NCBI GenBank assembly: GCA_964201515.1
Contig: CAXNGL010000002.1
Coordinates: forward strand, 1-41,288
Direction of reading: 5' to 3'
DNA length: 41,288 nucleotides
Origin: Burkholderiales bacterium
GTDB taxonomy: Bacteria > Pseudomonadota > Gammaproteobacteria > Burkholderiales > SG8-39
Within the stretch, counting starts at the first letter, position 1. Each line of letters opens with the position of its first letter. Position numbers and translations under genes: made by a program. Positions 3,571 through 30,484 of the stretch are shown here, piece after piece. The notes beneath the pieces are model-generated. The model had not been told where the DNA came from. It did not search any database and was given only the letters and a program-made list of their open reading frames with translations.

Positions 3571-3596
3571 TCTCGAGAAGTCTGTCCGACCCCAGA

Positions 3597-3627
3597 AAAG
3601 AAAACGCCCCGCATGCGGGGCGTTTTC
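3597..3627. terminator. bidirectional rho-independent terminator between the MFS gene and groEL
   Basis: GC stem cgccccg (3605-3611) pairs with cggggcg (3616-3622) around loop catg. An A-run lies 5' (aaagaaaa) and a T-run 3' (tttt), so it reads as a terminator on both strands. Confidence 0.7.
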
Positions 3628-3647
3628 TGGTTGCTGCTGAACAAAAA

Positions 3648-5318
<1,671 letters not shown>

Positions 5319-5690: not shown

Positions 5691-5816
5691 GAGATTGAAC
5701 ACTTTCATTGCAATGAAGCATTAGGACTTCTTGGGGATATCCTGAAAGGTGGAAGCGTCAGGATGTTCGAGGCCAGTCTCACCACCACAGGAGCCTGGGG
5801 AGGCACCCGAAGACCA

Positions 5817-5843
5817 TTAGCACTCGACATGGGAGAGTGCCAA
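5817..5843 (-). promoter_or_regulatory. CIRCE operator (HrcA binding site) upstream of groES
   Basis: ttagcactc-gacatggga-gagtgccaa equals the consensus TTAGCACTC-N9-GAGTGCTAA with one mismatch. It sits in the groES 5' leader. Confidence 0.8.
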
Positions 5844-5864
5844 TAGTAGGCCGATGTGCCCCGA

Positions 5865-5893
5865 ATAGCAATCGCGTTGGCCCGATAAATCAA
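5865..5893 (-). promoter_or_regulatory. candidate sigma70-type promoter of groESL
   Basis: On the minus strand, TTGATT (5893-5888), 17 nt, then TGCTAT (5870-5865). CIRCE begins about 22 nt downstream of the -10 box, the usual CIRCE/promoter arrangement. Confidence 0.35.
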
Positions 5894-6036
5894 AGTCGCT
5901 GCCCCAACCACCCCTGAAACACGTTCTGACGCATCTGCGACCGGCCGGCGACAGCCGAAGGATTGGATAGAATCCTCCCGGGCACCCGACAGTCCTGGGA
6001 CGCACATTGACATTGCGCGTGCAAATCTACGAGGTG

Positions 6037-7158: not shown

Positions 7159-7255
7159 TCACCCTGGCAAGGAGACCGGCCTGAGCAGGGCGCGCTGAAT
7201 TTCCGGACGCGCATGACGCGCGTGGCGCGCGCTTCACGCGCTGTTGAATGCCCGG

Positions 7256-11715: not shown

Positions 11716-11824
11716 GGCGCGGCCGGCCCCCGAATGACCGCCAACGGCCATGGCGTATTTTTTTTAATATGATCAATTTCTGATCGAGTACTTTTACTAT
11801 CGGATATGCGCATTGAGAATGTGA

Positions 11825-17529: not shown

Positions 17530-20500
17530 CTAGCGCTTGAACACCGCCACACCTGTGACCGTCTGGCCCACCGCGGTGATATTGCTGCCAGTGAAGGTCG
17601 ACGAGTTGAAGGTGTAAGCCATCCCCGCGCCCTGACCCGTGGTGCCAACGAAGCCGCCGGCAACTTTTCCGGACAGTGTTCCCGAGCAGGCACCGCCGGT
17701 ATTCGTGCAGGCCAGCCCGAGGGCGCCAGTACCTTTTTCGCGACTCACCTCGAAATACACGCCCTTCTGGATGGCAACCCCGGTAGCGGAGGCGGCCCAG
17801 GTATTGCCGTTCACGGTCGCATTCACGCCGACATCCACGGTCTTGGCAGTGAAGTTCGCCGCCAACGTGGCCGAGTTGAGCGTGCCCACGAAATTGCCGG
17901 AGGACGCGTTATCGGTCGGATTGGTGCCACCGACGAAACTGTAGGTCGCCGTCCCGCTCACCGGCAGCACCGTCGGCCCGGATTGCACGCCCGAGTAGAG
18001 GAAGTGACGGTTGTTGCCGGCGCTGAACTCAGCGCCGGCATTCAGGACGGTGCCGGTAATGCGGTCCACAACCACAAAGTTGCCGCCGGTGTAACGGCCC
18101 CAGCTGGCACCGGTCGTGGCGTCACGACCGAAATCGGCAATTGTCGCAGCGCTCGCTACGGCTGGCACGGCAAATCCAGCGGCCGTGGTGAGCGCCGAGG
18201 TACTGTAAGACACGTATGTTGGTATTTCATTCGTATAGCAGTTCGAACCGGCCGTCGAGCAACTGCTGCCCGACACCACCCTGCTGACCGCGTCAAAAGC
18301 GACCGGCTGGTTCGAACTGTTGTACTTGACGCTGCCCGGATCGATCACCTCGCCGTTTATCCCGACAAGGCTTGAGGTGTTGATGGCGAACGCGCGGTCG
18401 GAGATTGAGGTTGGAGCTGCCCGGACGATGCCGGTCGTCGCATCGAATCCCGCCGTGGTGCCTGAGGTGCCGAGGCGAATCTGGTAGGGCTGCGTTGCGA
18501 GTGCGGAGGTACCGCCGTAGCCGCCGTTACCTCCCGCATTGGCGGTGAAGGTCGGGCTGCCGAACGCCACCACGCCATTGACGTGCTCGTGGCTACCGCT
18601 GTTGTTCGCGTCACTGGCGCCAAAGGCATACGAGAGAAACGCACCGCTCGCGCTGGTGCCACTGCCGCCGCTCCCGCTCAAGGCGCCGCCAATCGATCCA
18701 AACGCAGACTGTGCCGTGGAAGTGGCGCCCGAGGTCGTGACGGTCACCGTCAGGCTGCGATCAGCCAGCGGGTTCGTCCCACTCGTATTCGACGCATTGA
18801 ACTGGCCGTCACCATTGAGAGCGATGTTATTTGCCGTGGCATTCCAAGTCCTTGCCATGCTGCCGGCACCGGCATTGGCCGGCACCTGGATGTTCGACAG
18901 ACCGATGCTAACCGATTGCTTGTCGAAGTTGATGCCAAAGGTTGCTGTACCGCCACCCAGCGCCGTGCCACTGGTAATCCCGTTCTGGTCTGTGGCCGGG
19001 GACGCGGCAATCATCGGATAAGAGGCAGTTCCCTGCAGGATGCTGCTCACATAGAAGGGCCACAGCTCCGGTCCGCGGATCCACTGCAAGGCGCCGACAA
19101 TGCTCTTGGCCAGCGTCGTGGGGCTGCTACTCGTCGTGCCGAACGATCCCAGTCCAGCGAGGTTTCCGTCGATGGTCAGCGGCGTTCCGGTTCCCGCCTG
19201 CCCTTGCGAGACAGTCTGCCCAGCGTAGCGGCCGAATACGATGCCGTTGCCAGTCGTCACCGGTGTTGCTGACACAGGCGTCGGCGTGCCATTGATTTTA
19301 ATGAAGTTAGGCGTCGTGTTGTTGGGGTCGTACTCGGTCACCGAAAGAAAGTTGCCCTGCGCGTCAACAGTACCCGTTCCCTGGGGCAGGGTATTCACCA
19401 CAAAGTTGTCATTGGTTCCAAAAGTGTAGGAAAGCGCCGTCGGCGTTGTGGTGGATGTTCCCGGCCAGGCGAAGAATGCAGTCGAGTACACCACGCCGGG
19501 CGTGGCTGCTGGTGCTGCCTCCGGCCCCTTGTTGAAGGCGACCATGCCGTTGATGAAGTTGTTGTTGATGGTGGTGGATGCCTGCGTGCCGGACGGAATT
19601 CCCCCCGTCGCACCGACAGCCATTCCGCTGGTGTAGTAGTTATTGAAGGTGTACCGGAAAAATGCGCCGTTCGCGGAATTGTCGCCTGCCAGCCCCCCCT
19701 GAATGCGACCGCCATACCCGTAAGTATTGGTAGAACCGACCGGGGGCGGCGCACAATTTGTTCCGACGCACGATACTTGCAACCCTCCGCCACCCACACC
19801 GGTTGCAACATTGAATCCAAAGTCGCTGCTGGTGATGGGCACGTTTGCCGCCCGTGCGCGCAAGACAAGCTGGCTGTTCATGGTGATGCTGACTTCAGGG
19901 TTGACTTGCTGCGTGGCAAAGTTAACGTCCAGCCGGGCGCGGTTCAACGACCCGACATTGCCAAGCGAATCCACAGGCGCTGTGCCGAAGGTCGGCAAAT
20001 AGTGGAACACGCCTACGATTGGTATCGCCGAAGGTACTTCACGGGTGTTCCAGATCACGCTGTTGCTACCCAGATTGGTCAACACATCCATGAAGGTGCC
20101 CGTCACCGTCGAGGCGTTCACCGCCCCGCCCAAGTAGCGTCCGAAGGAGATGCCGTTGGTCGTGTCGGCGTAGGTTTCAGTCAGGGTGGCCGTCGCCGCC
20201 TTGTCTCCATTGGCATTGAAGCCGACACCAAGGCTGGGCACCGTACCGCCGCCCATGGAGACAATGGCAGTGGTGCTGGCATTTGACGGTGTGCTGTTCA
20301 AGCACTGCGTAACCACACCGGTGCACTGCGTGGCCGCCCCTGCACTGCCGTTGAATATATTCCACGTGTCACCATTGACGCGAACAAGATTGCCGCTGGC
20401 ATCACGAATCAGCGCGGTATTTGCCACGGCGGTTCTGCCCGTCGATTCCAGGAAAACCTCGCCGTTCGATATGGATACCGGATATATGATTGAACTGCGG

Positions 20501-23500
20501 AAGCTGCCCGTGCTACCGACTGCAGTCGGATTACCACCGACAGTTGGCGCAGTCGCGCTCATTGCCGCGACGCCCTGGATATTGTCGCCATTGGGCGTAT
20601 TCGCCGGCACGGCGCCCAGGTTGGGTATGAAGTTGTAGCCCAGCGCACCGCCGTAGGCATTGGCAGCGCCAAAGCCGCCGGTGATGCCGCCATTCCACGT
20701 TCCCGCCGTGCTGCCACCAGCCGGGTTCGGAACCACGCAACCCGCCCCCGTACAAGTGATCGTTGGGGCCAAGGCACCTGAGAGCGAGTCTGAGAAAAAA
20801 CCATTATTGTTGATCGGTACGCTAGGCGTCTGCGCATTCAGCGTCAGCACTCGCGCCCCAGTGAACGACAGATTCACGTTCGCGCTCGCGGTCTGCGCGG
20901 AAAAATCTGCCGCAATCGACGCCGAATTGAGCGTGCCGACGTTGCCAAAGGAGTCGCTCGGTTTGGTTGCGGAGACCAATGCATAGTTGGTCGTGCCGAT
21001 GAGCTTCTGGACCAAATTCAGTGCCGGATACTGGAACACCATCCAGCTGGCACTCCGCGACCCGAGCGCAATGGACTCAAGCAGCGTATTGCCGCCCGAC
21101 GTGCCAGTGTCAGAGTAGATGTCCAGGGTACCGCCCTGCCAGCGACCGATGTAGATGCTGTTGTCGGCTGCCTTGAAGGTTTCATTGGCGGTGCCCCCGG
21201 CAAATTTCACGTAGCGGCTCGGAAACGGGGTGGTCTTGGTGTCGGTGGTGGTGTCGGTGAAGTTGAAGCCCTTGGCATCGATTTCTTCGGCGACGCGAAC
21301 ATTGACCAGGTTCTTGGCGCCGTCAAGCACAAGGTTGCTGCCGGCAACAGTATTCTTGTTGTTCACGAACACGTTTTCCACACCGGCACCGCTGGTCTTC
21401 CTGCCCGCGATGAAGAAGCCAAAACCATTGGGCGGCGCGGCCACTGCCGGGTTGCTGTATTGCGCAATCGGCGCCTGGGCGGCAACGATGGCCGCCTGTG
21501 TGTTGACCGCCGTGGTGTCCGTGGCGGCCGATGCAGCATAGGACTGCGCATCATTGGCGTAACCAAAAACGGTTTGGGAAGCCGTGGTGTCGGTCGAAAC
21601 GCCGGCACCCGCCTTGGCGGCCTGCGCGGAACCAATTCCGGAGATGATGGGGGCGGCGGCGGCAAGCGCATTCACCGCGATGGTCTGCTGCTGCTGGGCG
21701 ATGGTCAGTTGCGCCTGCGCGCTGGTGAAGTTGCCGGCGTCCTGGAATACCTTGGCCTGCGCTGCTGCAGTGGCCGCCGCCGTGGCAGCGTTTTGCGCCA
21801 TGGTGAGCAGGCCCTGCGCCGGGGTTGTCGTCGGGACGCCCAGCGCGGTCGCCAACGGCGTGTACGTTGTCAGCGCGGTATTCGCCGCGGTCATGGCGGA
21901 GTTGACTTGCGACAGCGTGCTGCCGCTCACTAGCTTGGCGACGCCCAGCGAGTTCGCCAGCGTGGTGATGGTGCTGGCCGCGGATTGCACCGCCGTGTTG
22001 GCGTTAATCACATTGTTCTTGGCCGGGGTTGCCAGCGTGGCATCGGCGAAAGCGCCGTTGGCGGCGAATGCAGCATTGGCCGCATTGGTCGTTGCCAGCG
22101 CGCTGGCCGCCGTCGTGTTCGGGGTAGCGGTATTGATCGTCAGCGCATTGGCGCTGTTGAATGCCGTTTGCGCCGCCGTCACCGCGGTCGAGGCTGCGGT
22201 GACTTCTGTCGGCAGATTCAACGATCCAAGTCCGCCCGAATTCGTCACCAGCGTGCTGAGGGAGGCTGCTGCAGCGGCAGCTGCCGCAGCGGCAGTGTCC
22301 GCCTGGCTGGCAAATGCGCCCTGGGAAATGGGCGCCGCGGTCCCTGTGGAGGTCACCACGGTGTTCGACGTCGTATTGACGGTCAATCCGGATGAGCTTG
22401 TCAGTACGATCGGCGTGGTGGTTGCCGTGGTGGTGCTGGTTGACGATGAAGAAGACGAACTGCCGCCACCGGCGGAGACCGGGGTGACCGTGACGACGGA
22501 AGTCGTGGCCATGGGGGAGGTGACCGACGACTGCGTTGCTGTCTGGGATGCGGTGGCAACCTGGGTCGGGCTGTCGACGACGGAGGCTCGGAGCGGTTCG
22601 GCCTGTTGCTGCGCTGGTGCTGCAGCCTGCTGCTGGGCAGGCGCGGCGGCCGTGGCCGTCGATTCGCCAGCCTGTGCGGGCGCAGCACCCTGTTGCTGTT
22701 GCTGCTGGCCTTGCGCTCCCCCTTGTTGCCCGCCTTGTTGCCCGCCTTGCTGCCCGCCCGCCCCCCCTGCTGGCGGGGCCGCTGGCTTCGACCCCGGCGG
22801 TGGTGTCGCCCGGACCAAGTTGGTCCCGACGCCTGGAGGAAGGATGCTTGGGGCCTGCCCAAGCCGCACGACACCGATCTGGTTCGGGCTAACGGGGAGA
22901 GGAACGCCGACGCCGACGCCCCCGACTCGTTGTTGGATCGTGGACTGACCCACGTTGTTCTTGACCAACGTGGTGTTGGCGAAACTCGACAGTCCGCCAC
23001 CCGATCCGCCACCCGGAGGACCCGCCTGCGCCAGCAGCATCGGCACCAGCGTTTCCTGCTGCCCGATGAACAGCGGCGCGACATCCAGCTGCAATCCGGC
23101 CTGCGCCAGCATTGCCGGCATGGGCGCCAGCGAAACCGTGCCGGGGGGAATGTAGATAATCTCGTGATCGGTGCCCCGAATGCCCACCGTCGCCGTTGGG
23201 GTGTTGATCTTGAAATTTCCCTTGTTGATGCGTCCAAGGGCGCCGGTAATGCTGCGGAATCCGCCGCGCACCAGCGACAACAGGCCGCGTTCGCTGCCGT
23301 CTTCCTTGCCCGCCCACTTGTACTCATCGAACTTCATCTGCGTGTCCGGACGCACCGCGAGGTACCCCCCGTCCACCATCTTGATCTGCGCCGAACCGCT
23401 GCCGACGATGAGCGTGTCACCCTCGTTCACCTGGTCGCCCTTGGCAATGACGCGCGTGCCCTGCGCCGTAGTCAATCGCACATCGCCAATGGCGAATTGC

Positions 23501-23580
23501 ACGGTGCCGATCTCCGCTCGCGCAGACACTGCCGCCAATGCGAATACGGCCACGGATAGAATTCTCAGGAATGTCGACAT
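17530..23580 (-). CDS. giant secreted protein: FecR-like N-domain, low-complexity spacer, four TbpB-like handle+barrel modules
   Basis: ATG 23580 is preceded by GGAG. The signal peptide MSTFLRILSVAVFALAAVSARA/EIG has no lipobox Cys. A FecR-type segment follows (GTVQFAIGDVRL...GDTLIVGSGSAQIKMVDGGYLAVRPDTQMKF...TPTATVGIRGTDHEI). Then comes a Q/G/A/S/T-rich region of about 530 aa. Four repeats each end in a pattern of the form G-T-A-x-Y...G-x-L-N-x-A-x-L-x-x-N-F...G-G-F-x-G...G-V-x-A-F. Confidence 0.85.
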   Translation of the reverse strand: MSTFLRILSVAVFALAAVSARAEIGTVQFAIGDVRLTTAQGTRVIAKGDQVNEGDTLIVGSGSAQIKMVDGGYLAVRPDTQMKFDEYKWAGKEDGSERGLLSLVRGGFRSITGALGRINKGNFKINTPTATVGIRGTDHEIIYIPPGTVSLAPMPAMLAQAGLQLDVAPLFIGQQETLVPMLLAQAGPPGGGSGGGLSSFANTTLVKNNVGQSTIQQRVGGVGVGVPLPVSPNQIGVVRLGQAPSILPPGVGTNLVRATPPPGSKPAAPPAGGAGGQQGGQQGGQQGGAQGQQQQQQGAAPAQAGESTATAAAPAQQQAAAPAQQQAEPLRASVVDSPTQVATASQTATQSSVTSPMATTSVVTVTPVSAGGGSSSSSSSTSTTTATTTPIVLTSSSGLTVNTTSNTVVTSTGTAAPISQGAFASQADTAAAAAAAAAASLSTLVTNSGGLGSLNLPTEVTAASTAVTAAQTAFNSANALTINTATPNTTAASALATTNAANAAFAANGAFADATLATPAKNNVINANTAVQSAASTITTLANSLGVAKLVSGSTLSQVNSAMTAANTALTTYTPLATALGVPTTTPAQGLLTMAQNAATAAATAAAQAKVFQDAGNFTSAQAQLTIAQQQQTIAVNALAAAAPIISGIGSAQAAKAGAGVSTDTTASQTVFGYANDAQSYAASAATDTTAVNTQAAIVAAQAPIAQYSNPAVAAPPNGFGFFIAGRKTSGAGVENVFVNNKNTVAGSNLVLDGAKNLVNVRVAEEIDAKGFNFTDTTTDTKTTPFPSRYVKFAGGTANETFKAADNSIYIGRWQGGTLDIYSDTGTSGGNTLLESIALGSRSASWMVFQYPALNLVQKLIGTTNYALVSATKPSDSFGNVGTLNSASIAADFSAQTASANVNLSFTGARVLTLNAQTPSVPINNNGFFSDSLSGALAPTITCTGAGCVVPNPAGGSTAGTWNGGITGGFGAANAYGGALGYNFIPNLGAVPANTPNGDNIQGVAAMSATAPTVGGNPTAVGSTGSFRSSIIYPVSISNGEVFLESTGRTAVANTALIRDASGNLVRVNGDTWNIFNGSAGAATQCTGVVTQCLNSTPSNASTTAIVSMGGGTVPSLGVGFNANGDKAATATLTETYADTTNGISFGRYLGGAVNASTVTGTFMDVLTNLGSNSVIWNTREVPSAIPIVGVFHYLPTFGTAPVDSLGNVGSLNRARLDVNFATQQVNPEVSITMNSQLVLRARAANVPITSSDFGFNVATGVGGGGLQVSCVGTNCAPPPVGSTNTYGYGGRIQGGLAGDNSANGAFFRYTFNNYYTSGMAVGATGGIPSGTQASTTINNNFINGMVAFNKGPEAAPAATPGVVYSTAFFAWPGTSTTTPTALSYTFGTNDNFVVNTLPQGTGTVDAQGNFLSVTEYDPNNTTPNFIKINGTPTPVSATPVTTGNGIVFGRYAGQTVSQGQAGTGTPLTIDGNLAGLGSFGTTSSSPTTLAKSIVGALQWIRGPELWPFYVSSILQGTASYPMIAASPATDQNGITSGTALGGGTATFGINFDKQSVSIGLSNIQVPANAGAGSMARTWNATANNIALNGDGQFNASNTSGTNPLADRSLTVTVTTSGATSTAQSAFGSIGGALSGSGGSGTSASGAFLSYAFGASDANNSGSHEHVNGVVAFGSPTFTANAGGNGGYGGTSALATQPYQIRLGTSGTTAGFDATTGIVRAAPTSISDRAFAINTSSLVGINGEVIDPGSVKYNSSNQPVAFDAVSRVVSGSSCSTAGSNCYTNEIPTYVSYSTSALTTAAGFAVPAVASAATIADFGRDATTGASWGRYTGGNFVVVDRITGTVLNAGAEFSAGNNRHFLYSGVQSGPTVLPVSGTATYSFVGGTNPTDNASSGNFVGTLNSATLAANFTAKTVDVGVNATVNGNTWAASATGVAIQKGVYFEVSREKGTGALGLACTNTGGACSGTLSGKVAGGFVGTTGQGAGMAYTFNSSTFTGSNITAVGQTVTGVAVFKR
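22721..22756. repeat. 12-bp in-frame tandem repeat x3 inside the giant gene (encodes GGQQ x3)
   Basis: Units ccttgttgcccg / ccttgttgcccg / ccttgctgcccg, followed by further CAG/CAA-rich sequence encoding poly-Q. Confidence 0.8.
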
Positions 23581-23730
23581 GGTGTCTCCGGCTTTCAAGG
23601 CGATACCCCGATCGGGGAATGGGTTTCTTTTTTCAGGCTAGACATTTCGCACCCTGGGGTCAATCGGTGCCATGCGCGGGAGCGGTCATAAGTCACGGCT
23701 CCGGATGATGGCGACCAAACGACTCGATGC

Positions 23731-25080
23731 CTACAAACTGAGGTCGCGGCGCAGGGTGAGCGAGATCTCGTTGCGCTCATAGGCGTAGATCGGGATGCTC
23801 GAGATGTTCTTCGAGTACGTCCACTGCGGCTTGAGCGTCCAGTCCTTCTCGAAGCGCCAATTCACCCCCAGCGAGAGGTCGCGCTGGTCGTCGCGCCGGA
23901 AGGCCAGGAACGCCGTGTTCTGCCGCTCGTAATGCGCGCGCTGGTTGGTCGCCACCGCAAACAGGTCCATGTCCTCGCGCAGCACCAGCTGCCCGCCAAT
24001 GCGGAATCCCTCCGAGCGCTTGGCGCCGTCGGCGCGGCCCGACGGGTCGCGCTCCTTGCCGAACAGGTAGTTGGCCAGCAGCACCGCCTGCCCGTCGCCC
24101 AGCACCCGCAGGTAGCCCAGGCCAGTGGTCGATGAATTGAAGTTGTTCACCATGTTGGCTGCGCTGGTAAAGCGGTTGCGCGAGAACTGGCTGAACGCAC
24201 TCAACTGGTTGGCCGGGTCGATGGTGTACTTCCACTCGCCCGACATGCCCTCGGAGCGCCGGCTCAGGTCATTGTCCAGCGTGTAGCGACCGCTTTGCCC
24301 GGCGATCTTCAACTGGTTGGTCGCCTCGCCCACAGACACCCCGCCGCGCATGTCCACGCTGCCGTTGTCGAACGTATCCTGGGTGAAGTTCATGCGCTGG
24401 CGAAAGTCACCGCCCACAAAGGCCCCCAGGCCCGGCGTGAACTGGTAGGTATATTCCGCGCCCGCACCCACCGCCTTGAAGCTGTCGCCGCGCTTCAGGT
24501 TGGTCGGGTTCAGCGTGAAGGTCAGTCCGCCCAGCGCCGGCACCGCGATGTTGGCCTGCGAGCCCGAGTTGTTCACGTTGGTATCGTTGCCGATCTGCAA
24601 CTCGACATAGCCGCGCAGCGTGCGCTTCTTGGCGCGCTCGATCTTGTCGATGGCATCCAGATAGGTCGTGATCACCGTCTGCGCCTGCTGTGGCGGGTTT
24701 TGTTCCCTTACGGCAAGGAATTCCGTCTTGGCCCGCTCGGCATCACCCAGCTGGAAGTAGGCGCGCGCCATGTCCAGGCGGGCACCGGCAAAGTTCGGGT
24801 TCACTGCCAGCACGCGCTCAAAAGCGAGCGTCGCCTTGTCGGACTTCCCGGAATCCAGCGCCGCCACTCCCAGCGCATAGTCGAACTCCACGTTGCCGGC
24901 GAACTTGTCCTCGAACGGCAGCAGGTAGTCGTAGGCTTGTGCAGGCTTGCCCTGGTTCAACAGCTCCTGGGCGCGCGCAACTTCAGCTTGCTGGGCCTGC
25001 GCAACATGGCCTGCCCCTAGCAATAGAAGAAGCGATACCGTCACTACTGCGCGAAAAATATTCACCCGCGTCGAATTCAT
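23731..25080 (-). CDS. TPR + beta-barrel outer-membrane protein, Slam/DUF560-like (putative type XI secretion translocator)
   Basis: ATG 25080 is preceded by GGAG. The signal peptide is MNSTRVNIFRAVVTVSLLLLLGAGHVAQA. About 150 aa of TPR-like repeats follow (AQELLNQGKPAQAYDYLL..., ATLAFERVLAVNPNFAGARLDMARAYFQLGDAERAKTEFLAV). The remaining roughly 290 aa show the alternating amphipathic strands typical of a barrel (YVELQIGNDTNVNN..., WRFEKDWTLKPQWTYS). The size and architecture match Slam as I recall it, and the gene sits directly upstream of a TbpB-barrel-like cargo gene. Confidence 0.6.
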   Translation of the reverse strand: MNSTRVNIFRAVVTVSLLLLLGAGHVAQAQQAEVARAQELLNQGKPAQAYDYLLPFEDKFAGNVEFDYALGVAALDSGKSDKATLAFERVLAVNPNFAGARLDMARAYFQLGDAERAKTEFLAVREQNPPQQAQTVITTYLDAIDKIERAKKRTLRGYVELQIGNDTNVNNSGSQANIAVPALGGLTFTLNPTNLKRGDSFKAVGAGAEYTYQFTPGLGAFVGGDFRQRMNFTQDTFDNGSVDMRGGVSVGEATNQLKIAGQSGRYTLDNDLSRRSEGMSGEWKYTIDPANQLSAFSQFSRNRFTSAANMVNNFNSSTTGLGYLRVLGDGQAVLLANYLFGKERDPSGRADGAKRSEGFRIGGQLVLREDMDLFAVATNQRAHYERQNTAFLAFRRDDQRDLSLGVNWRFEKDWTLKPQWTYSKNISSIPIYAYERNEISLTLRRDLSL

Positions 25081-25387
25081 GCAGTGCTCCATCCTCTGAA
25101 TTGTCGTTCTCGTTATTAGTCGAACCACCCAAGCATGGCAATCATGGTAGCTCCAGCATTCATTCTTGCCCATTCATTGCCTCCTTGCCGAGGAAGGCTG
25201 CACTTGAGTGTACGCCCCCCCCCTCCCGACACTCAATCAAAGCAGTCGCGTTATTCTCTATAATTTTGATGCTCGCAGTCTATGTTAAGTTTTGTTGTTT
25301 ATGTTGAATTTTAAAAAAGACCGGCTTCACGCCGCTACAATGATTCGCGCGGCCAGTTGGCCGGCCGCGAACAACTTCGCAAATTCC

Positions 25388-26266
25388 ATGAACAGCGGGT
25401 TATCCACAAGCAAGATCGTATTCATCGGTGCAGGTCGTCTCGCGACTGGCCTCTCGCTGGCGCTGCACGCCAACGGCATCGCTGTGCAGGCCATCACCAG
25501 CCGCAACCGTGACAAGTCACAGGCATTGGCATCCCGAATCCCGGGTTGCAGCACGATCGGAATGCAGGCAGCAGTCGATCTGGGCGATCTTGTGTTCATC
25601 GCAGTACCGGATGACGCCATTGCATCGGTGGCAGCGCAGCTGCGCTGGCGTCCGGGTCAATCTGCGGTGCATTGCAGCGGCGCCACGGAAATTGCGGTCC
25701 TGTCTCCCGCCCTCGAAGCCGGTGCTGCGATCGGCGGGTTCCACCCACTGCAGACATTCACCGACCCTGAAGTCGCGCTTGCGACACTTCCCGGATGCAC
25801 CGTTGCGCTGGAGGCGGAGCCTGAGCTGTTCTCGACACTGGAGCACCTGGCCAAGGCGATCGGCTGCCGCCCATTCGCCTTGCCCAAGGGCGCTCGCGCC
25901 CGCTATCACGCCACCGGCAGCTACGGCGCCCAGTTCATTAACGCGCTGCTGCTCGAGGCCAGCGCGGTGTGGGAATCCTTCGGCAAGGATCGGGAGGCCG
26001 CCGTGCGCGCCCTGCTGCCGCTGCTCAAAGGCACCATCGCCGCCATTGAGCACGATGGCCTGGCGCACGGGCTTGCCGGGCCGGTGTCGCGCGGCGACGC
26101 CGGCACCGTGCGCCGCCAGCTGGAGGGCATCGCGCAGGTGGGCGATGCGCAGGTCGCACTGTTTCGCCAACTAACGCGGCTGACGCTGCCACTGGCCATC
26201 GAACGCGGCTCACTTAGCGCGGTGCAGATTGAAGCGTTGCGGACGCTGCTTGAGGATAAGGACTAA
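25388..26266 (+). CDS. Rossmann-fold NAD(P) oxidoreductase (DUF2520-type)
   Basis: The ATG 25388 start gives MNSGLSTSKIVFIGAGRLATGLSLAL, a GxGxxA dinucleotide fold at the N-terminus. The C-terminal helical domain contains GPVSRGD. Earlier in-frame starts (25292, 25340) are possible. Confidence 0.6.
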   Translation: MNSGLSTSKIVFIGAGRLATGLSLALHANGIAVQAITSRNRDKSQALASRIPGCSTIGMQAAVDLGDLVFIAVPDDAIASVAAQLRWRPGQSAVHCSGATEIAVLSPALEAGAAIGGFHPLQTFTDPEVALATLPGCTVALEAEPELFSTLEHLAKAIGCRPFALPKGARARYHATGSYGAQFINALLLEASAVWESFGKDREAAVRALLPLLKGTIAAIEHDGLAHGLAGPVSRGDAGTVRRQLEGIAQVGDAQVALFRQLTRLTLPLAIERGSLSAVQIEALRTLLEDKD

Positions 26267-27602
26267 AGTCTTTTGGCAATTGAGGGCGCCGTGACAAGAC
26301 CACGCCCTTCAAACTCCCCCGCTTCAGGGGCCATTTCGGTAGTTCTGCTATGGCCGGTTGGAACGATTGCAATATTCCTTCTGCAACCGCAAACAGATCA
26401 ACCCTGCCCCACGCAATCTTCTTCGTCACCGCCGCGCCCTGCTCGTGGTTGTTCATGTAGCCACGCTGCCATGTCGTCGCAGGGTTTCCCGCAATCACAA
26501 TGCCAATCGACTCCGGCGTGTAGAAACAGGGCACCAGCCGGTCGGGGTCCTTCGAAGTCCCATAGGCCGCCGGGACGATGCCCTTTTCCAGCTGCGACGC
26601 AAGATCGATGTTCACGAAGCGACCGCGGAATTCGACGTCGCGGGCCAGAATCTTCGCCCGCTCGTAGAGGTAGTTGCGGATGTCGTTCTTGCTCCAGCCT
26701 TTGTCGGCGGCCAGCTTGGCGATCTGCGGGTTCATGATGATCAACGGGTCCCAGTGGGCAAACGCCACCGCCGTGTGCACCCAGTAGCCAAGAATGGCCT
26801 TGCCGAACACGTCGGCCATCGGGTCGAGGTAGCCCAGCAGGTCGTTGCCCTCCGAGCCGTGGCCGGCCATCGGCGCACTGGCGCCGATCATGCTTTGCAC
26901 CGTCACGCCGCTCTCGCCCTCCTTCAGTCCCCGCTCCATGCCGTAGGTGGGCCAGCCGATGGAGCGAACGAAATCCTCGGCTTCGGCGATGACGACATTG
27001 AATGGATTGCCGATGCCGGCGCGGTCCGTCTCGCCCGGCGGAATGCGCAGGCCGGCGATGTTGCGCGTGTACAAACGAAGGAAGCGGCCGATGGCGGTAT
27101 TGGCGCGACGCCCCGCGCGCATGACGCCGGTGCCGAAGTTGAAGTCGAGCGCCTGGGTCACCGGCCCGCTGATGACAATGAGCGGCTCCCATCCGGGCGT
27201 GCTGCCATGGTCCTCGATGCGGAATTCCGGATCGGCGACGGCATCGACCAGCGCCAGCAGCACCGGCATGTATTCGGGCAGGCAGCCCGACATCACGCCA
27301 TTCACCGCCACATTCCACACCGTGGCCTCGCGCCGCTCCGGCAACAGCACGCCGATGACTTCCTCCGGCTTGCGCCGGGTGTGCTGCATGAAGGCATCGA
27401 TACGCTCGAGCGTGGGCGGTATGACCGGCAGGCCTTCAGTCCACTGCTGATCGTAGAAATGCGCGTTGACTTCGTCAATGGATCCACGGAACACGACCTC
27501 GCGCGGCTTGTGCTCGCCGCCCCTGTGCGCGGGCGAGATCTTCACGTTGCCCAGCTCAGAGATGATCTGGTCGACGATGTCGTTGGCCACGCGCACAGAC
27601 AT
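26214..27602 (-). CDS. uncharacterised family protein, paralog A (462 aa)
   Basis: ATG 27602 (MSVRVANDIV...). It shares W-T-E/D-G-L-P-x-x-P-T-x-E-R-hydrophobic-D-x-F, AVNxVMxGCxPE and a C-terminal IxIhhAGxP block with the ORF at 28249..29277. It is transcribed divergently from the TGA-containing gene. Its 3' end overlaps the convergent oxidoreductase gene by 53 nt. Confidence 0.75.
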   Translation of the reverse strand: MSVRVANDIVDQIISELGNVKISPAHRGGEHKPREVVFRGSIDEVNAHFYDQQWTEGLPVIPPTLERIDAFMQHTRRKPEEVIGVLLPERREATVWNVAVNGVMSGCLPEYMPVLLALVDAVADPEFRIEDHGSTPGWEPLIVISGPVTQALDFNFGTGVMRAGRRANTAIGRFLRLYTRNIAGLRIPPGETDRAGIGNPFNVVIAEAEDFVRSIGWPTYGMERGLKEGESGVTVQSMIGASAPMAGHGSEGNDLLGYLDPMADVFGKAILGYWVHTAVAFAHWDPLIIMNPQIAKLAADKGWSKNDIRNYLYERAKILARDVEFRGRFVNIDLASQLEKGIVPAAYGTSKDPDRLVPCFYTPESIGIVIAGNPATTWQRGYMNNHEQGAAVTKKIAWGRVDLFAVAEGILQSFQPAIAELPKWPLKRGSLKGVVLSRRPQLPKDFSPYPQAASATLQSAPR

Positions 27603-27673
27603 TCGACAGGCATTCGTTGACGCGCCATCCCTGGCATGCAAACATCAATCCCATTCGGATGACCGGAGGTTGC

Positions 27674-28252
27674 ATGGCCAAAACCACGCTGTACTCGCCC
27701 ATCCCCGATGTATGGCTCGTCGATCCCGCGCTCGCCGCCAGGAAAAGCGAGGGAGTCAGGTTCCCCACCGGCAAGGTGATCGGCATTGTCGACAACGGCA
27801 AGCTGAAGAGATTCGGCGATGCGCTGGAGTGGCACCTGCGTGCGCGCGGCGCCCGCGACGTCATTCGCTGGAGCAAGCACTACCAGGATGGTGCCCCCGA
27901 CGACGCTCTGATCGCCGACATCGCCAGCAAGGTGGAGGCATCGGTGGTCGGCCTGGGCAATTGAGGAAGCTGCACGGCATGGAGTTGCCATGCCACCGCC
28001 AGGATCGACAACACCGGCATGCCCGTGGTCGTGCTCACCATTCCGCAATTCGAGACGGTGGCGAAGGTGTCCAACCGCGCCTACGGGGCGAAGCACGCCG
28101 GCCTGATGGTGGTGCGCGAGGATGTGGATGTGATCACGGGACCTGAACTGGATGCCGAAGCCGAGCGCGTGGCGCAACTGCTGCTGGGCGACGTCGAGAT
28201 GCAGTTCCCGCGCGGCGGTGCCGGCCTTATGTCCGGGGGCGCCAAACCATGA
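27674..28252 (+). CDS. probable selenoprotein with a U-G-S-C (UxxC) motif; TGA 27962-27964 read as selenocysteine
   Basis: ORF-track fragments 27617..27964 and 28019..28252 are in the same frame with only this TGA between them. GGAGG (27665-27669) precedes ATG 27674. Readthrough gives ...SVVGLGN-U-GSCTAWSCHATARIDNTGMPVVVLTIPQFE.... A hairpin starts 11 nt after the TGA. The terminal TGA overlaps the next start (ATGA, 28249-28252). Confidence 0.7.
27976..27994 (+). promoter_or_regulatory. SECIS-like stem-loop
   Basis: ggcatgg (27976-27982), loop agttg, then ccatgcc (27988-27994): a perfect 7-bp stem starting 11 nt 3' of the UGA. The loop G-U lies 20-21 nt after the UGA. Confidence 0.6.
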
Positions 28253-29277
28253 ATGCAAAGTCCCGAATGAAAACCATCGACATTGCGCACGAATCGCCCC
28301 GGGAACTGGAGCGCCTGCTGCGCGATCGCGGTTGGACGGACGGCCTGCCGATCCACCTCCCCACCAAGGAGCGCGTGGATGAGTTCATCGCCGCATCCGG
28401 CATGCGCCCAGACGAGATCATCGGCCATGTGGCGCCGCAGGGCGGCCTTGCCACCGTCGGCCTGATTGCGGTCAATGCCGTCATGGCGGGCTGCGAACCG
28501 GAGCACCTGCCGGTGGTTGTGGCCGCCGTGCGGGCGCTGCTGAAGGAGCCGTTCCGGCTGCACCTGGTGCAAGTCACTACCAATCCCCTCGCGCCGCTGG
28601 CCGTTGTCAACGGCCCGGCACGGCTGACCGCCAATGTGCGCTGGGGTCGCGAGGCCATGAGCCCGGGCCCGGGCGGCAACGGTCCGATCGGGCGCGCCAT
28701 CCGCTTCGTTCTAAGGAACATCGGCGGCATCGGCGAGGCCGACACGGCGACGTTCGGCAACCCGGCCAAGTACACCTTCGTGCTGGCCGAGGACGAAGCA
28801 GGCAGCCCCTGGGAACCCCTGCACGTGTGGCAGGGCTACCAGCGCGAAGACAGCGTCGTGACTGTGCTCGGCATCGAGGGATGCGTCGATGTGGTCCCCG
28901 AATCGGGAAGCACCACGGCCGAGAACCTGCTCAATCACCTGGGCCACGCCATGCAGACCATCAGCACCGGCGTCTGGTGGTCCAAGGGCAACCCGACCTT
29001 CGTCATCACGCCGCGCTATGCCGAATTGTTCGCCAACAAGGGCATGCGCCGCGCCGATGTGCAACTGGAATTGTGGGAGCGATCGAAAATCCCGGTGAAC
29101 TCGCTGCCGTTTTCGAACATCAACACCGGCGACTGGAAACTCGACGGCGATCGCATATTGGTGACCGCAGACCCGAAGGATATTTACATCATCGTTGCCG
29201 GATCGCCCGAGGGGCATCACGCGCTGTACATGCTGCCGTGCTGCCTGCCGATGGCGACGCATTCGAAAGTGAACTAG
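28249..29277 (+). CDS. uncharacterised family protein, paralog B (342 aa)
   Basis: MNAKSRMKTIDIAHESPRELERLLRDRGWTDGLPIHLPTKERVDEF...AVNAVMAGCEPEHLPVVVAAV... aligns by eye with paralog A. Its start is coupled to the stop of the TGA-containing gene. Confidence 0.8.
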   Translation: MNAKSRMKTIDIAHESPRELERLLRDRGWTDGLPIHLPTKERVDEFIAASGMRPDEIIGHVAPQGGLATVGLIAVNAVMAGCEPEHLPVVVAAVRALLKEPFRLHLVQVTTNPLAPLAVVNGPARLTANVRWGREAMSPGPGGNGPIGRAIRFVLRNIGGIGEADTATFGNPAKYTFVLAEDEAGSPWEPLHVWQGYQREDSVVTVLGIEGCVDVVPESGSTTAENLLNHLGHAMQTISTGVWWSKGNPTFVITPRYAELFANKGMRRADVQLELWERSKIPVNSLPFSNINTGDWKLDGDRILVTADPKDIYIIVAGSPEGHHALYMLPCCLPMATHSKVN

Positions 29278-29365
29278 TCGAGGCGCCTGACAGCAACATT
29301 GTCGGGCGCCCTGAGATTTCCCGCCATCGCGGCGCATTGATCGAATTTCCTGCGGAAGGAACACA

Positions 29366-30484
29366 ATGACGAAGAAAAGTTACTGCATCACGCTGCTGCC
29401 AGGCGATGGCGTCGGGCCGGAAATTACCGAGCAGGGCCGCAAGGCGCTGGCAGCGGCGGCGCAACGCTTCGGGTTCGACATCCGCTTCCAGCAGGGCTAC
29501 TTCGGCAACGCCGCCATTGAAAAATATGGCAGCAGCTTTCCCGCCGAGACGCTGGCGCTGTGCCAGGCATCCGACGCCATCCTGACCGGGGCGACCGGCG
29601 GGGTGACGGGCGCGACTGCCTACAAGCCCATGGACCCCAAGGGCGGCAAGCGCGGCCTGCACAAGGGGTTGGGGCTGACCGTCAACTTCCGGCCGGCGCG
29701 ATTGCTTCCGTCCTTGCATGCGTGTTCGGCGCTCAAGCCGGCGCTGGTCGCCTCGGGCGTGGACATGGTGGTCGTCAGGGACATTTCCGCCGGCCTTTGG
29801 ATGGGGACGCCACGCGGCTTGACCAAAACCGCCCGCGGTCGTTCGGCCGTCAATACGCTGAAATACAAGGAGTCCGAAGTCGCCCGCATCATGCGCGCCA
29901 GTTTCAGGCTTGCCGAGGGGCGCCGCAAGCGCCTGGACGTGGTCGCCCAGGACAACGTGCTGGAAACCTCGCAGTTATGGCGACAGGTGGCCATGGAAAT
30001 GGCCAGTGAATACCCGTCGGTGGAGGTCGAGCATCACTATCCGGATGCCTTTGGCCGGCTGCTGCTGATCAAGCCCGGCGATTTCGACGTCGTGGTCGTG
30101 GATCACATGTTCCTTGCCGGCGTATTCAACGACCAGTGCGGCCCCATCGTCGGCTCGCTCGGCATGATCCCGTCCGCCGACCTGCGCGTGAGCGCCAGCG
30201 GCAAGGCCAGCGGCTGCTTCGGGTTTTACGAGCCCGCGCACGGCAGCGTTCCGCACCGCGCGGGAAAAAACCAGGTCAACCCGCTGGCCACGGTACTCGC
30301 GGCAGCGCTGCTGTTGCGCTATTCCCTGCGCCAGGAAAGAGCCGCCAGCGCAGTCGAGCGCGCCGTGGATGCGGTAACGCTGCAATACCGCACCTACGAC
30401 ATCGCCGAACCCGGGACCACGCTGGTCGGCACCGCGGAAATGGGCGACGCCGTGGTCCGCGCCATCGCCGACATCAAGGCCTAG
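29366..30484 (+). CDS. isocitrate/isopropylmalate dehydrogenase family protein (LeuB/tartrate dehydrogenase-like)
   Basis: GGAAGGA SD before the ATG. The N-terminal ITLLPGDGVGPEIT is the hallmark of the beta-decarboxylating dehydrogenase family. Later motifs include VVRDISAGLW and YEPAHGSVPHRAGKNQVNPLA. Confidence 0.85.
   Translation: MTKKSYCITLLPGDGVGPEITEQGRKALAAAAQRFGFDIRFQQGYFGNAAIEKYGSSFPAETLALCQASDAILTGATGGVTGATAYKPMDPKGGKRGLHKGLGLTVNFRPARLLPSLHACSALKPALVASGVDMVVVRDISAGLWMGTPRGLTKTARGRSAVNTLKYKESEVARIMRASFRLAEGRRKRLDVVAQDNVLETSQLWRQVAMEMASEYPSVEVEHHYPDAFGRLLLIKPGDFDVVVVDHMFLAGVFNDQCGPIVGSLGMIPSADLRVSASGKASGCFGFYEPAHGSVPHRAGKNQVNPLATVLAAALLLRYSLRQERAASAVERAVDAVTLQYRTYDIAEPGTTLVGTAEMGDAVVRAIADIKA

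What the first reader, a model, noticed from the sequence alone, without database searches (positions are those of the whole stretch)
27674..28252. Hidden selenoprotein: one in-frame TGA followed by G-S-C and a SECIS-like hairpin merges two ORF fragments
Observed in the sequence:
- ORFs 27617..27964 and 28019..28252 are in the same frame, and the only stop between them is TGA 27962-27964.
- The next codons are GGA AGC TGC. Decoding the TGA as Sec gives ...EASVVGLGN-U-GSC-TAWSC..., a UxxC redox-type motif right after a hydrophobic beta-strand-like run. This is the usual setting for redox-active Cys/Sec.
- Eleven nt after the TGA, a perfect 7-bp stem (ggcatgg/ccatgcc) carries a 5-nt loop AGUUG.
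- The downstream fragment has no Shine-Dalgarno before its ATG. It keeps the GC3-rich codon pattern of real genes here. It ends in an ATGA overlap with the next gene.
- The upstream part has a strong GGAGG SD.

From memory, not verified:
- The loop G-U falls 20-21 nt after the UGA, the spacing I recall for the E. coli fdhF SECIS.
- RefSeq uses the name 'UGSC family (seleno)protein' for a poorly characterised family with exactly this motif.

The merged product would be 192 aa with Sec at residue 97, of unknown function.
Basis: partly seen in the sequence, partly recalled or inferred. Interest (0 to 1): 0.85.

Follow-up and report, generated by a model that had tools for sequence, protein, structure and literature searches.

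The report
Split gene is a UGSC selenoprotein
Two short "genes" at 27674-28252 are really one 192-residue selenoprotein of the already catalogued, functionally unknown UGSC family, read through a UGA codon with the help of a conserved RNA hairpin and always paired with an uncharacterised partner gene.

Summary

- The merged protein matches Pfam PF24696 (UGSC) across the TGA.
- Cysteine homologues carry CGSC at that column.
- About 100 relatives carry TGA there.
- Codon-level purifying selection continues downstream of the TGA.
- The hairpin covaries across 87 genes and places G23-U24 in its loop, as in E. coli fdhF.
- A covariance model trained on other subfamilies finds only this site in the window (32.6 bits).

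The family has been known since 2005-2008, so this is a new, divergent member and not a new kind. It scores 60.9 bits against an NCBIfam cutoff of 125, and gene callers split it in every close relative.

- The next gene (28249-29277) belongs to a large orphan family that sits beside or is fused to a UGSC domain in about 90% of evaluable cases.
- UGSC proteins show weak, recurrent similarity to the GrdB/PrdB selenoprotein B family.
- selA, selB and tRNA-Sec lie beside the module in two relatives.
- The 475-aa ORF on the opposite strand is a truncated second module.

The window itself holds no Sec-decoding genes, and the rest of its genome could not be examined.

The parts
27664..27668 (+). Shine-Dalgarno GGAGG of the selenoprotein gene, 5 nt before the ATG
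   Evidence: Read directly from the sequence.
27674..28252 (+). Complete UGSC-family selenoprotein CDS: 192 aa, Sec at residue 97, motif GLGN-U-GSC-TAWSCHA. Gene callers split it into a 96-aa and a ~77-aa ORF.
   Evidence: Pfam PF24696 at 86.6 bits spans aa 29-168. NCBIfam NF041046 scores 60.9 bits, below its cutoff of 125. The two window fragments align on either side of the C/U column of the Cys homologues. Codon-level conservation continues past the TGA.
27962..27964 (+). In-frame UGA read as selenocysteine
   Evidence: TGA occupies the same column in 7 of 7 subfamily members. A motif scan found 90 TGA against 1 TGC among family genes. An HMM scan found 101 of the 105 partner-adjacent UGSC domains carrying an in-frame TGA. 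TGA is also the commonest true stop in the window, 9 of 17 genes, so decoding must be site-specific.
27976..27994 (+). SECIS hairpin: stem 27976-27982 pairs with 27988-27994, loop AGUUG 27983-27987. It starts 11 nt after the UGA, and loop G23-U24 match the fdhF numbering.
   Evidence: Across 87 genes, 86.2% of cells are paired against 73.1% in shuffles (0 of 500 shuffles reach it) and 21-48% when the partner column is slid. There are 69 cells with a change on both sides. Within the subfamily, A-U and G-C swap through synonymous changes. Columns 23-24 are GT in 72 of 87 genes, and the Ser codon there is AGT in 64 of 67 cases, against 0 of 87 for the Ser of GSC. Covariance model R1, built without this subfamily, scores 32.6 bits (E 1e-10) here and 10.4 bits at the next best site.
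28249..29277 (+). Partner gene (342 aa) of an orphan family. Its start overlaps the selenoprotein stop (ATGA), which suggests translational coupling.
   Evidence: 105 of 128 partner genes have a UGSC domain within 800 nt on the same strand, or fused; 11 more are cut by contig ends. In-frame fusions of 530-580 aa exist. The family has 7390 representative clusters. It has no relative in Pfam, NCBIfam or the PDB. The AlphaFold2 model (pLDDT 89, pTM 0.91) has no Foldseek PDB match at E <= 1e-3.
26214..27641 (-). Orphan paralogue of the partner gene. It is the 3' two-thirds of what in relatives is a fused UGSC2::partner2 selenoprotein gene. Its Sec-bearing N-terminal domain has been deleted here.
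   Evidence: It is 32% identical to the 342-aa partner. It aligns from residue 168 of the 578-aa L056 fusion, and with residues 166-248 of the L002 fusion at 74% identity. blastn shows the window lacks L002 1093-3912. No SD precedes its ATG.

Best explanation
Coordinates 27674-28252 are a single gene for a 192-residue selenoprotein of the UGSC family.

Decoding (shown by comparison; the mechanism follows from established knowledge of bacterial Sec insertion). The ribosome reaches UGA 27962-27964. The mRNA hairpin 27976-27994 lies 11 nt downstream and presents G23-U24 in its apical loop. It would recruit SelB-GTP-Sec-tRNA(Sec), so selenocysteine is inserted instead of terminating. This geometry matches the minimal E. 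coli fdhF SECIS.

Protein (modelled on a Cys homologue). The domain is a five-unit beta/alpha, flavodoxin- or Rossmann-like fold. Sec sits at the end of a beta-strand, on the N-terminal cap of the following helix. The resolving Cys lies three residues later (U-G-S-C), a setting suited to forming and breaking a selenenylsulfide.

Function (inferred). The selenoprotein works as the redox or nucleophilic subunit of a two-part enzyme with the product of the overlapping downstream gene 28249-29277. That product belongs to a large orphan family with a nearly invariant Cys (AVNAVMAGC). It is encoded next to, or fused to, a UGSC domain in most genomes sampled. The nearest characterised relatives of the UGSC domain, by weak sequence similarity around the Sec, are the selenoprotein B subunits of glycine, sarcosine, betaine and D-proline reductases (GrdB/GrdF/GrdH/PrdB). 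In those enzymes Sec attacks a substrate held by a second subunit, and the UxxC pair ends oxidised as Se-S. My working model is a similar reductive cleavage or reduction on a substrate bound by the partner. The substrate and the electron donor are unknown.
For: Single gene:
- The Pfam UGSC domain spans the TGA.
- The two window fragments flank the Cys column of the homologues.
- Third-position substitutions dominate both upstream and downstream of the TGA in six relatives. For L002 the counts by codon position are 4/6/27 upstream and 1/2/11 downstream.
- No SD precedes the internal ATG.

Sec decoding:
- TGA is conserved in 7 of 7 subfamily members, and the motif scan found 90 TGA against 1 TGC.
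- Hairpin covariation statistics support a real structure.
- AGU codon bias keeps G23-U24 in the loop.
- The fdhF geometry was confirmed.
- An independent covariance model hits only this site strongly.
- tRNA-Sec, SelA and SelB are encoded next to the module in L029 (Xenophilus azovorans). tRNA-Sec and SelB are next to it in L092.

Fold: AlphaFold2 model of Cys homologue P0122, pLDDT 88.7, with Cys105 between strand 97-103 and helix 106-121. Foldseek returns only generic flavodoxin-like, GTPase and lumazine-synthase folds, and no thioredoxin in the top 50.

Partner link:
- 105 of 128 partner genes are adjacent to or fused with a UGSC domain.
- Fusions exist with Sec and with Cys.
- The ATGA overlap is visible in the sequence.

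GrdB/PrdB link: 28 of 56 UGSC proteins hit TIGR01917 (best E 6.6e-6), 20 hit GrdF, 18 GrdH, 17 TIGR01918 and 10 PrdB. No unrelated family is hit by more than 2. GrdB carries UxxCxxC (PMC13188914), and some UGSC members read UGSCTAC. The PrdA/PrdB mechanism is described in PMC11229817.
Against: - The window contains no selA, selB, selC or selD, and the source genome could not be searched.
- There is no protein-level evidence of Sec insertion.
- Hairpin folding energy is not better than shuffled sequence.
- Part of the hairpin's conservation is confounded with conservation of the encoded peptide T-[SA]-W-S-x-H.
- The GrdB/PrdB similarity is far below every curated cutoff. It covers only about 65 residues, was obtained after writing U as C, and is not reproduced with Pfam (no GRDB hit in 56 proteins). 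The window's own protein does not show it.
- The partner has no detectable similarity to PrdA or GrdE, or to anything else.
- 12 partner genes with complete flanks lack a nearby UGSC domain.
- Neighbouring genes are heterogeneous and name no substrate.
Confidence: 0.9

Rival explanations
1. The TGA is a real stop. Two small independent genes (96 aa and 77 aa) happen to lie in one frame.
For: This is how automatic gene callers treat it in every close relative: 96-aa (104 in L110) plus 54-81-aa ORFs. TGA is a normal stop elsewhere in the window.
Against: One Pfam domain spans both pieces. Cys homologues are continuous. The second piece has no SD, and its called start varies among relatives, giving 54-81 aa. 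Conservation is continuous through the 18 codons between the TGA and the internal ATG.
Confidence: 0.02
2. The gene is a pseudogene or assembly error: a Cys codon (TGC/TGT) mutated or misread to TGA in an otherwise ordinary CGSC protein.
For: A single base separates TGA from TGC/TGT, and Cys forms of the family exist.
Against: The same TGA occurs in 7 independent contigs of the subfamily and about 100 family genes from unrelated phyla. Purifying selection continues downstream. RNA-level constraints, namely compensatory pairs and the AGU codon, are kept.
Confidence: 0.02
3. The UGA is recoded, but not to Sec. Examples would be Cys inserted through a tRNA-Sec-like tRNA, or low-level near-cognate read-through.
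For: Nothing here measures which amino acid is inserted. The source genome's Sec genes were not seen.
Against: The hairpin has the geometry of a SelB-binding SECIS. Canonical SelA, SelB and tRNA-Sec (anticodon tca) lie beside the module in relatives. The family is an accepted selenoprotein family (PMC2398784).
Confidence: 0.03
4. It is a genuine selenoprotein, but a free-standing thiol-disulfide oxidoreductase, as the literature's 'Trx-like' guess proposes. Its link to the neighbouring gene would be only regulatory or incidental.
For: The UxxC motif is typical of thiol oxidoreductases, and the GOS paper suggests a Trx-like fold (PMC2398784). 12 partner genes lack a UGSC neighbour. Some UGSC Cys forms are stand-alone proteins, although the one checked locus, L066, also has the partner gene.
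Against: Adjacency holds in about 90% of evaluable cases across phyla, with repeated in-frame fusions and an ATGA overlap here. The predicted fold is flavodoxin-like, with no thioredoxin among the top Foldseek matches. The recurrent weak similarity is to GrdB/PrdB, which are subunits of multi-protein reductases.
Confidence: 0.15

Closest known systems
UGSC-containing (seleno)protein family (Pfam PF24696; NCBIfam NF041046; Zhang & Gladyshev, PMC2398784, PMC1976440)
   Same: The domain matches across the Sec codon. The U-G-S-C motif follows a hydrophobic strand. Sec and Cys alternate at one column. The SECIS hairpin sits at the same position. A partner gene is adjacent; this may be the 'Unknown_1' domain of the fusion noted in PMC2398784, which I did not verify.
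   Different: This is a divergent subfamily, with GLGN-U-GSCTAWSCHA in place of G(S/A)GD-U-GSCTSWSVHD. It scores 60.9 bits against the NCBIfam cutoff of 125, so the curated model would not name it. Its hairpin has a 5-nt loop (AGUUG) where the family usually has a 3-nt loop.
Selenoprotein B of glycine/sarcosine/betaine/D-proline reductases (GrdB, GrdF, GrdH, PrdB; TIGR01917, NF040794, NF040795, TIGR01918, TIGR04483)
   Same: Both have a Sec-x-x-Cys motif and work, or are encoded, with a second subunit. There is weak, recurrent sequence similarity over about 65 residues centred on the Sec: 28 of 56 UGSC proteins, best E 6.6e-6.
   Different: The scores are far below the family cutoffs and no Pfam GRDB hit appears. 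The partner is unrelated by sequence to the pyruvoyl proproteins PrdA and GrdE. The hosts are largely aerobic or facultative lineages (Betaproteobacteria, Chloroflexi, Rokubacteria, Binatia, Bacillaceae), not Stickland fermenters. No grdA, grdC, prdC or similar genes appear nearby.
E. coli fdhF SECIS, the archetypal bacterial selenocysteine insertion element
   Same: The hairpin begins 11 nt after the UGA. G23 and U24, counted from the U of UGA, lie in the apical loop.
   Different: The window's stem is a perfect 7 bp with no bulged U17. The loop is 5 nt (AGUUG) against 6 nt in the literature structure (4 nt in the fold). There is no extended lower helix.

Membership tests
UGSC family (Pfam PF24696) | Domain match above Pfam's gathering score | tested here: met
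   86.6 bits against a cutoff of 25, covering aa 29-168 of the merged protein and so spanning the TGA.
UGSC family (Pfam PF24696) | U/C-G-S-C motif at the conserved column, with Sec and Cys alternating among homologues | tested here: met
   The window has N-U-GSC. P0001, P0122 and P0334 have CGSC at the same column. The motif scan found 90 TGA against 1 TGC. Variants UGAC, UGGC, UGTC and UGQC also occur.
UGSC family (Pfam PF24696) | Conserved sequence continuing downstream of the Sec | tested here: met
   Alignment A3 and codon-position substitution counts.
NCBIfam NF041046 'UGSC family (seleno)protein' (equivalog) | Score at or above the curated cutoff of 125 bits | tested here: not met
   The window scores 60.9 bits. 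Subfamily relatives score 61.3 and 68.7. The two other Sec-type domains tested, from L013 and L073, also fall just short at 114-116, while the Cys form P0122 scores 147.6.
Bacterial SelB-dependent selenoprotein gene | In-frame UGA, in a genome that otherwise uses UGA as a stop | tested here: met
   9 of 17 checked genes end in TGA.
Bacterial SelB-dependent selenoprotein gene | SECIS stem-loop shortly after the UGA, with G/U in the apical loop | tested here: met
   Geometry, covariation, codon bias, covariance model hit at 32.6 bits. No Rfam family matches the site.
Bacterial SelB-dependent selenoprotein gene | selA, selB, selC and selD present in the same genome | not testable with these tools
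   None are in the 41-kb window. The source contig is 42,357 bp and its names are masked. In relatives, tRNA-Sec lies beside the module with SelA and SelB in L029 and with SelB in L092.
Bacterial SelB-dependent selenoprotein gene | Selenium actually incorporated at the UGA | not testable with these tools
   Needs 75Se labelling or mass spectrometry.
GrdB/PrdB selenoprotein B family | Match to the family models at their cutoffs | tested here: not met
   Best E is 6.6e-6, with hits of about 12-15 bits where shown, against cutoffs of 300-800 bits. The hits recur in 28 of 56 UGSC proteins. The window protein itself gives no hit, and Pfam gives none.
GrdB/PrdB selenoprotein B family | Pyruvoyl-forming partner subunit (GrdE/PrdA) encoded alongside | tested here: not met
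   The partner matches no Pfam or NCBIfam model, even at E 1-10.
Thioredoxin-fold oxidoreductases (the literature's suggestion for UGSC) | Thioredoxin-like fold around the redox motif | tested here: inconclusive
   The AlphaFold2 model of a Cys homologue is a 5x(beta-alpha) flavodoxin- or Rossmann-like domain. The top 50 Foldseek PDB matches include no thioredoxin. This rests on a model, not a solved structure, and the homologue is only about 18-27% identical to the two window fragments.

The most novel reading that the evidence does not exclude
The UGSC protein and its orphan partner may together form an uncharacterised, very widespread two-subunit (or fused) selenoenzyme. In this reading the UGSC domain is a distant, miniaturised relative of the Stickland-type selenoprotein B (GrdB/PrdB), and the partner is a substrate-holding subunit with a new fold and a nearly invariant Cys. 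In the most speculative version that Cys is a self-processing or catalytic site analogous to the one in PrdA. This would extend GrdB/PrdB-like selenium chemistry from strict anaerobes into Betaproteobacteria, Chloroflexi, Rokubacteria, Binatia, bacilli and some archaea.
Probability: 0.3. Interest if true: 0.75.

Novelty: new member of a known kind. Interest (0 to 1): 0.4.

Why it matters
For this window, the result corrects an annotation: two hypothetical mini-ORFs are one selenoprotein. The same split appears in all close relatives examined, and the curated NCBIfam model would not rescue them.

More broadly, UGSC is among the most abundant prokaryotic selenoprotein families in aquatic metagenomes (PMC2398784), and its function has been unknown for about twenty years.
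- An obligate partner gene family: 7390 clusters at 50% identity, with no database model and no structural relative.
- Natural fusions, which argue for a physical complex.
- A weak but recurrent link to GrdB/PrdB chemistry.
- Cultured strains that carry the module, in one case directly beside selAB-selC: Xenophilus azovorans DSM 13620, Robertmurraya sp. 2P01SA and Bacillus dakarensis.

Tried and rejected
- The UGSC structure is therefore that of Cys homologue P0122, not of the window protein.
- **First homologue search.** The word-index search with the merged protein found only one hit, P0001. The subfamily had to be reached through the neighbouring gene instead.
- **Solved structures.** PDB sequence searches found nothing for the UGSC protein, the UGSC profile or the partner profile.
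- **Partner fold.** Foldseek gave only sub-threshold hits to the cyclic amide hydrolase 'Toblerone' fold (E 0.017, TM about 0.2). I do not treat this as a match.
- **Rfam.** It has no model that matches the site.
- **Neighbouring genes.** A Pfam census of 146 ORFs found no consistent third component or substrate clue: TctC 9, luciferase-like 8, PrpD 4.
- **Metagenome scan.** The scan with the single partner protein returned only one additional close relative.
- **Organism identity.** It could not be obtained, because cluster names are masked and GroEL is a singleton cluster.
- **Genetic code.** A reassigned UGA was considered and rejected, because TGA terminates 9 of 17 checked genes.
Full report
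**1. The observation**

The sequence, the ORF list and the translation confirm every structural statement in the finding.
- ORFs 27617..27964 and 28019..28252 are in one frame, separated by a single stop, TGA 27962-27964.
- The next codons are GGA AGC TGC.
- From ATG 27674, which is preceded by GGAGG with a 5-nt spacer, the merged product is 192 aa with the TGA at codon 97.
- There is no Shine-Dalgarno sequence before ATG 28019.
- The terminal TGA overlaps the next gene's ATG as ATGA.
- The hairpin is ggcatgg / AGUUG / ccatgcc at 27976-27994, starting 11 nt after the TGA.

Folding energy does not show that this is more than chance: z = -0.29 over 66 nt and -0.60 over 42 nt. The authentic E. 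coli fdhF SECIS also scores only z = -0.91, so thermodynamics is the wrong test for elements of this size.

**2. What the protein is**

- With Sec written as Cys, the merged protein matches Pfam PF24696 'UGSC family' at 86.6 bits (cutoff 25) over residues 29-168, so the match crosses the TGA.
- It matches NCBIfam NF041046 'UGSC family (seleno)protein' at only 60.9 bits, below the curated 125.
- Cys-containing homologues have CGSC at the same column: P0001 reads VAVVGLGNCGSCTSW.
- Haloarchaeal and proteobacterial proteins that NCBI names 'UGSC family (seleno)protein' also carry it.
- The two window fragments align immediately on either side of that Cys.

The family is in the literature as the 'UGSC-containing protein'. 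It is described as a selenoprotein of unknown function (PMC1976440). It is one of the most abundant selenoprotein families in the Global Ocean Sampling data, with 255 Sec forms against 21 Cys forms (PMC2398784). Current reviews still list it as uncharacterised (PMC9312934, PMC13188914).

**3. The window's own subfamily**

The window protein itself recovered almost nothing in the word-indexed search, so I reached relatives through the downstream gene. Six contigs carry partner proteins 59-94% identical to the window's: L002, L108, L109, L110, L083 and L111.
- All six have the same arrangement, and gene callers split all of them into a 96-aa ORF (104 aa in L110; the first ORF is cut by the contig end in L108) plus a 54-81-aa ORF.
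- All keep TGA at the same codon and the peptide (V/L)VGLGN-U-GSCTAWSCHA.
- Substitutions relative to the window fall mainly at third codon positions both before and after the TGA. For L002 the counts by position are 4/6/27 upstream and 1/2/11 downstream; for L108 they are 11/10/29 and 7/5/18. The segment after the TGA is therefore translated in this frame and under purifying selection.
- TGA is also the most frequent ordinary stop codon in the window, used by 9 of 17 checked genes. Its decoding here must be local, not a reassigned code.

**4. The SECIS**

I aligned, in codon register, the TGA and the next 45 nt (48 nt in all) of 87 distinct UGSC genes.
- They share a hairpin at columns 15-22/26-33, starting 11 nt after the UGA.
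- 86.2% of cells are paired, against 73.1% in column shuffles (0 of 500 shuffles reach the observed value) and 21-48% when the 3' partner is slid by 1-3 columns.
- There are 69 cells with changes on both sides, and the covariation score is 0.320 against 0.134.
- Pair 21-27 alternates between G-C (56 genes) and C-G (28 genes).
- The window differs from the family consensus at two pairs by compensatory changes, U-A to G-C and G-C to A-U.
- Within its subfamily, the fourth stem pair (nt 18 with nt 30 from the U of UGA) is A-U in three members and G-C in four. Both versions arise through synonymous third-position changes: GCA/GCG for Ala and CAU/CAC for His.

The loop carries G23-U24, counted from the U of UGA, in 72 of 87 genes. 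The Ser codon supplying them is AGU in 64 of 67 cases. The Ser of the G-S-C motif, nine nucleotides after the UGA, is never AGU (0 of 87). That bias is hard to explain except by an RNA-level constraint.

I recalled the fdhF SECIS from memory and confirmed it against 5419 E. coli genomes, where it lies in fdhF. Its loop has G23-U24 at the same numbering.

A covariance model built from 66 genes, excluding the window's subfamily, finds 27962-28009 at 32.6 bits (E about 1e-10) in a full unfiltered scan of both strands. The next best site scores 10.4 bits. Part of this signal comes from the conserved coding sequence, so the model is not a pure test of structure.

**5. Sec machinery**

The window has no tRNA gene, and the ORFs scanned against Pfam include no sel genes. 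The source contig is only 42,357 bp, and its protein names are masked.

Indirect support comes from relatives. ARAGORN over all about 110 fetched loci found four tRNAs, and two of them are tRNA-Sec lying beside the UGSC/partner module.
- In L029 (Xenophilus azovorans DSM 13620), SelA and SelB genes are adjacent to the tRNA-Sec.
- In L092, SelB and a thioredoxin-reductase-like flavoprotein are adjacent.

**6. The partner gene**

The gene overlapping the selenoprotein's stop (28249-29277, 342 aa) has no Pfam or NCBIfam match, even at permissive thresholds, and no PDB relative by sequence. Yet the family is large.
- More than 5600 clusters at 90% identity appear in the word-indexed search.
- 7390 representatives at 50% identity reach E <= 1e-3.

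I sampled 80 GTDB genomes, 25 metagenome contigs and the close relatives. Among 128 partner genes:
- 105 have a UGSC domain within 800 nt on the same strand, or overlapping it, and 101 of those carry an in-frame TGA;
- 11 are cut by contig ends;
- 12 have no UGSC domain nearby.

The UGSC gene lies upstream in 72 cases and downstream in 25. In-frame UGSC::partner fusions of 530-580 aa occur with Sec (L013, L014, L015, L020, L023, L035, L056, L058, L074, L078) and with Cys (P0298, P0308, P0326, P0334). P0334 reads GLGNCGSCTAWS, like the window subfamily. This may be the 'UGSC/Unknown_1 fusion' mentioned in a supplementary figure of PMC2398784. I did not check that sequence, and I found no later discussion of it.

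The AlphaFold2 model of the window's partner is confident (pLDDT 89.2, pTM 0.91). It has no Foldseek PDB match at E <= 1e-3. The best hits, to cyclic amide hydrolases, have TM about 0.2. Conserved positions include a nearly invariant Cys82 in AVNAVMAGC and a TTNP motif.

A census of neighbouring genes is heterogeneous: TctC, luciferase-like monooxygenases, PrpD and hydrolases. The conserved unit is therefore the pair of genes.

**7. Fold and nearest characterised relatives of the UGSC domain**

An AlphaFold2 model of the Cys homologue P0122 (pLDDT 88.7, pTM 0.83) is a five-fold beta/alpha domain. The Cys/Sec sits between strand 97-103 and helix 106-121. Foldseek finds only generic flavodoxin-like, P-loop GTPase and lumazine-synthase folds (TM 0.3-0.46), with no thioredoxin in the top 50. 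The published 'Trx-like' suggestion is therefore not supported by this model.

I scanned 56 diverse UGSC proteins individually against NCBIfam.
- 28 hit GrdB (TIGR01917, best E 6.6e-6), 20 hit GrdF, 18 GrdH, 17 the generic selenoprotein B model and 10 PrdB.
- No unrelated family is hit by more than two proteins.
- In the three cases shown in detail, the matched stretch is the 45-85 residues around the Sec.

This is recurrent but weak. It lies far below the curated cutoffs and is absent with Pfam and for the window protein itself. It was obtained with Sec written as Cys. I treat it as the best lead to mechanism, not as family membership. In PrdA/PrdB and in glycine reductase, Sec attacks a substrate held on the partner subunit, and a UxxC(xxC) motif is involved (PMC11229817, PMC13188914).

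**8. Local history**

The 475-aa ORF on the opposite strand (26214-27641) is a paralogue of the partner, 32% identical.
- It aligns from residue 168 of a 578-aa UGSC::partner fusion (L056).
- It aligns at 74% identity with residues 166-248 of the L002 fusion.
- DNA comparison shows the window lacks L002 positions 1093-3912, which hold the Sec-bearing N-terminal domain, a P450 gene and an SDR gene.
- It also lacks L002 positions 5568-7918, which hold a solute-binding protein gene and an amidohydrolase gene (gene content).

The window therefore holds one intact module and one decapitated module. No SD precedes the ATG of the truncated ORF.

**9. Verdict**

It is a hidden selenoprotein gene with a functional-looking SECIS. 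It belongs to a known family, as a divergent subfamily that the curated NCBIfam model would not name and that gene callers split.

The parts of wider interest are the near-obligatory partner of unknown fold, the natural fusions, the weak GrdB/PrdB link, and sel genes beside the module in two relatives, one a cultured strain. Together these make the long-open question of UGSC function experimentally approachable.

My confidence in identity and decoding is about 0.9. My confidence in the two-subunit working model is about 0.6, and in PrdB-like chemistry about 0.3.

Noticed in passing
window 26214-27641 (-): The 475-aa ORF is the 3' part of a gene that in relatives is a fused UGSC::partner selenoprotein of about 570-616 aa. 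Here the Sec-bearing N-terminal domain, together with neighbouring P450 and SDR genes (about 2.8 kb relative to L002), is missing, and no SD precedes its ATG. It may be a recent pseudogene, or a partner that now depends on the remaining UGSC protein in trans.
   Followed up: yes
window 29278-29365, compared with L002 5568-7918: Between the partner gene and the Iso_dh-family dehydrogenase gene (29366-30484), the window lacks about 2.35 kb that L002 has (a solute-binding protein and an Amidohydro_2 gene). Other relatives carry TctC, TauD or further amidohydrolases there. The spot is an indel hotspot flanked by conserved genes.
   Followed up: partly
L029 1305-4891 with tRNA at 4710-4803; L092 4130-7151: In Xenophilus azovorans DSM 13620 and in one metagenome contig, the UGSC/partner module lies directly beside tRNA-Sec and SelB. 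L029 also has SelA there, and L092 has a thioredoxin-reductase-like gene. UGSC may be a principal client of the Sec machinery in these genomes.
   Followed up: partly
alignment A2, columns 22-24 (window 27983-27985): The Ser codon in the SECIS loop is AGT in 64 of 67 cases, mostly in GC-rich genomes. The Ser of the GSC motif nearby is never AGT (0 of 87). This is a clean example of an RNA constraint overriding codon preference.
   Followed up: yes
loci L003, L004, L007, L012, L039, L043, L046, L053, L070, L077, L095, L096: Motif variants occur at the Sec site: UGAC, UGGC, UGTC, UGQC, and also UGTS and UGSS, which lack the resolving Cys. A few domains have neither Sec nor Cys (L012 3042-3572, L101).
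   Followed up: no
window 37545-37831 (+): The Rfam 5_ureB_sRNA match (140 bits) lies antisense inside the urease alpha-subunit gene (36280-37983, minus strand). It most likely reflects conservation of the urease coding sequence, not an sRNA in this organism.
   Followed up: no
window 9101-15719 (-): A run of overlapping long ORFs that all match MFS_1, amounting to about five tandem major-facilitator transporter genes. The exact gene boundaries were not resolved.
   Followed up: no
window 17530-23598 (-) and 23731-25173 (-): A 2022-codon ORF has only a weak FecR-domain match, just below Pfam's cutoff. It lies immediately downstream of a gene with TPR and SlipAM (surface lipoprotein assembly modifier) domains. 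This could be a Slam-dependent giant surface protein.
   Followed up: no
window 3648-5306 (-): The GroEL encoded here is the sole member of its 90%-identity cluster in a 15-billion-protein collection. The source organism is therefore poorly sampled. The nearest module relatives come from unnamed metagenome contigs and from an Acidimicrobiales-labelled MAG.
   Followed up: no
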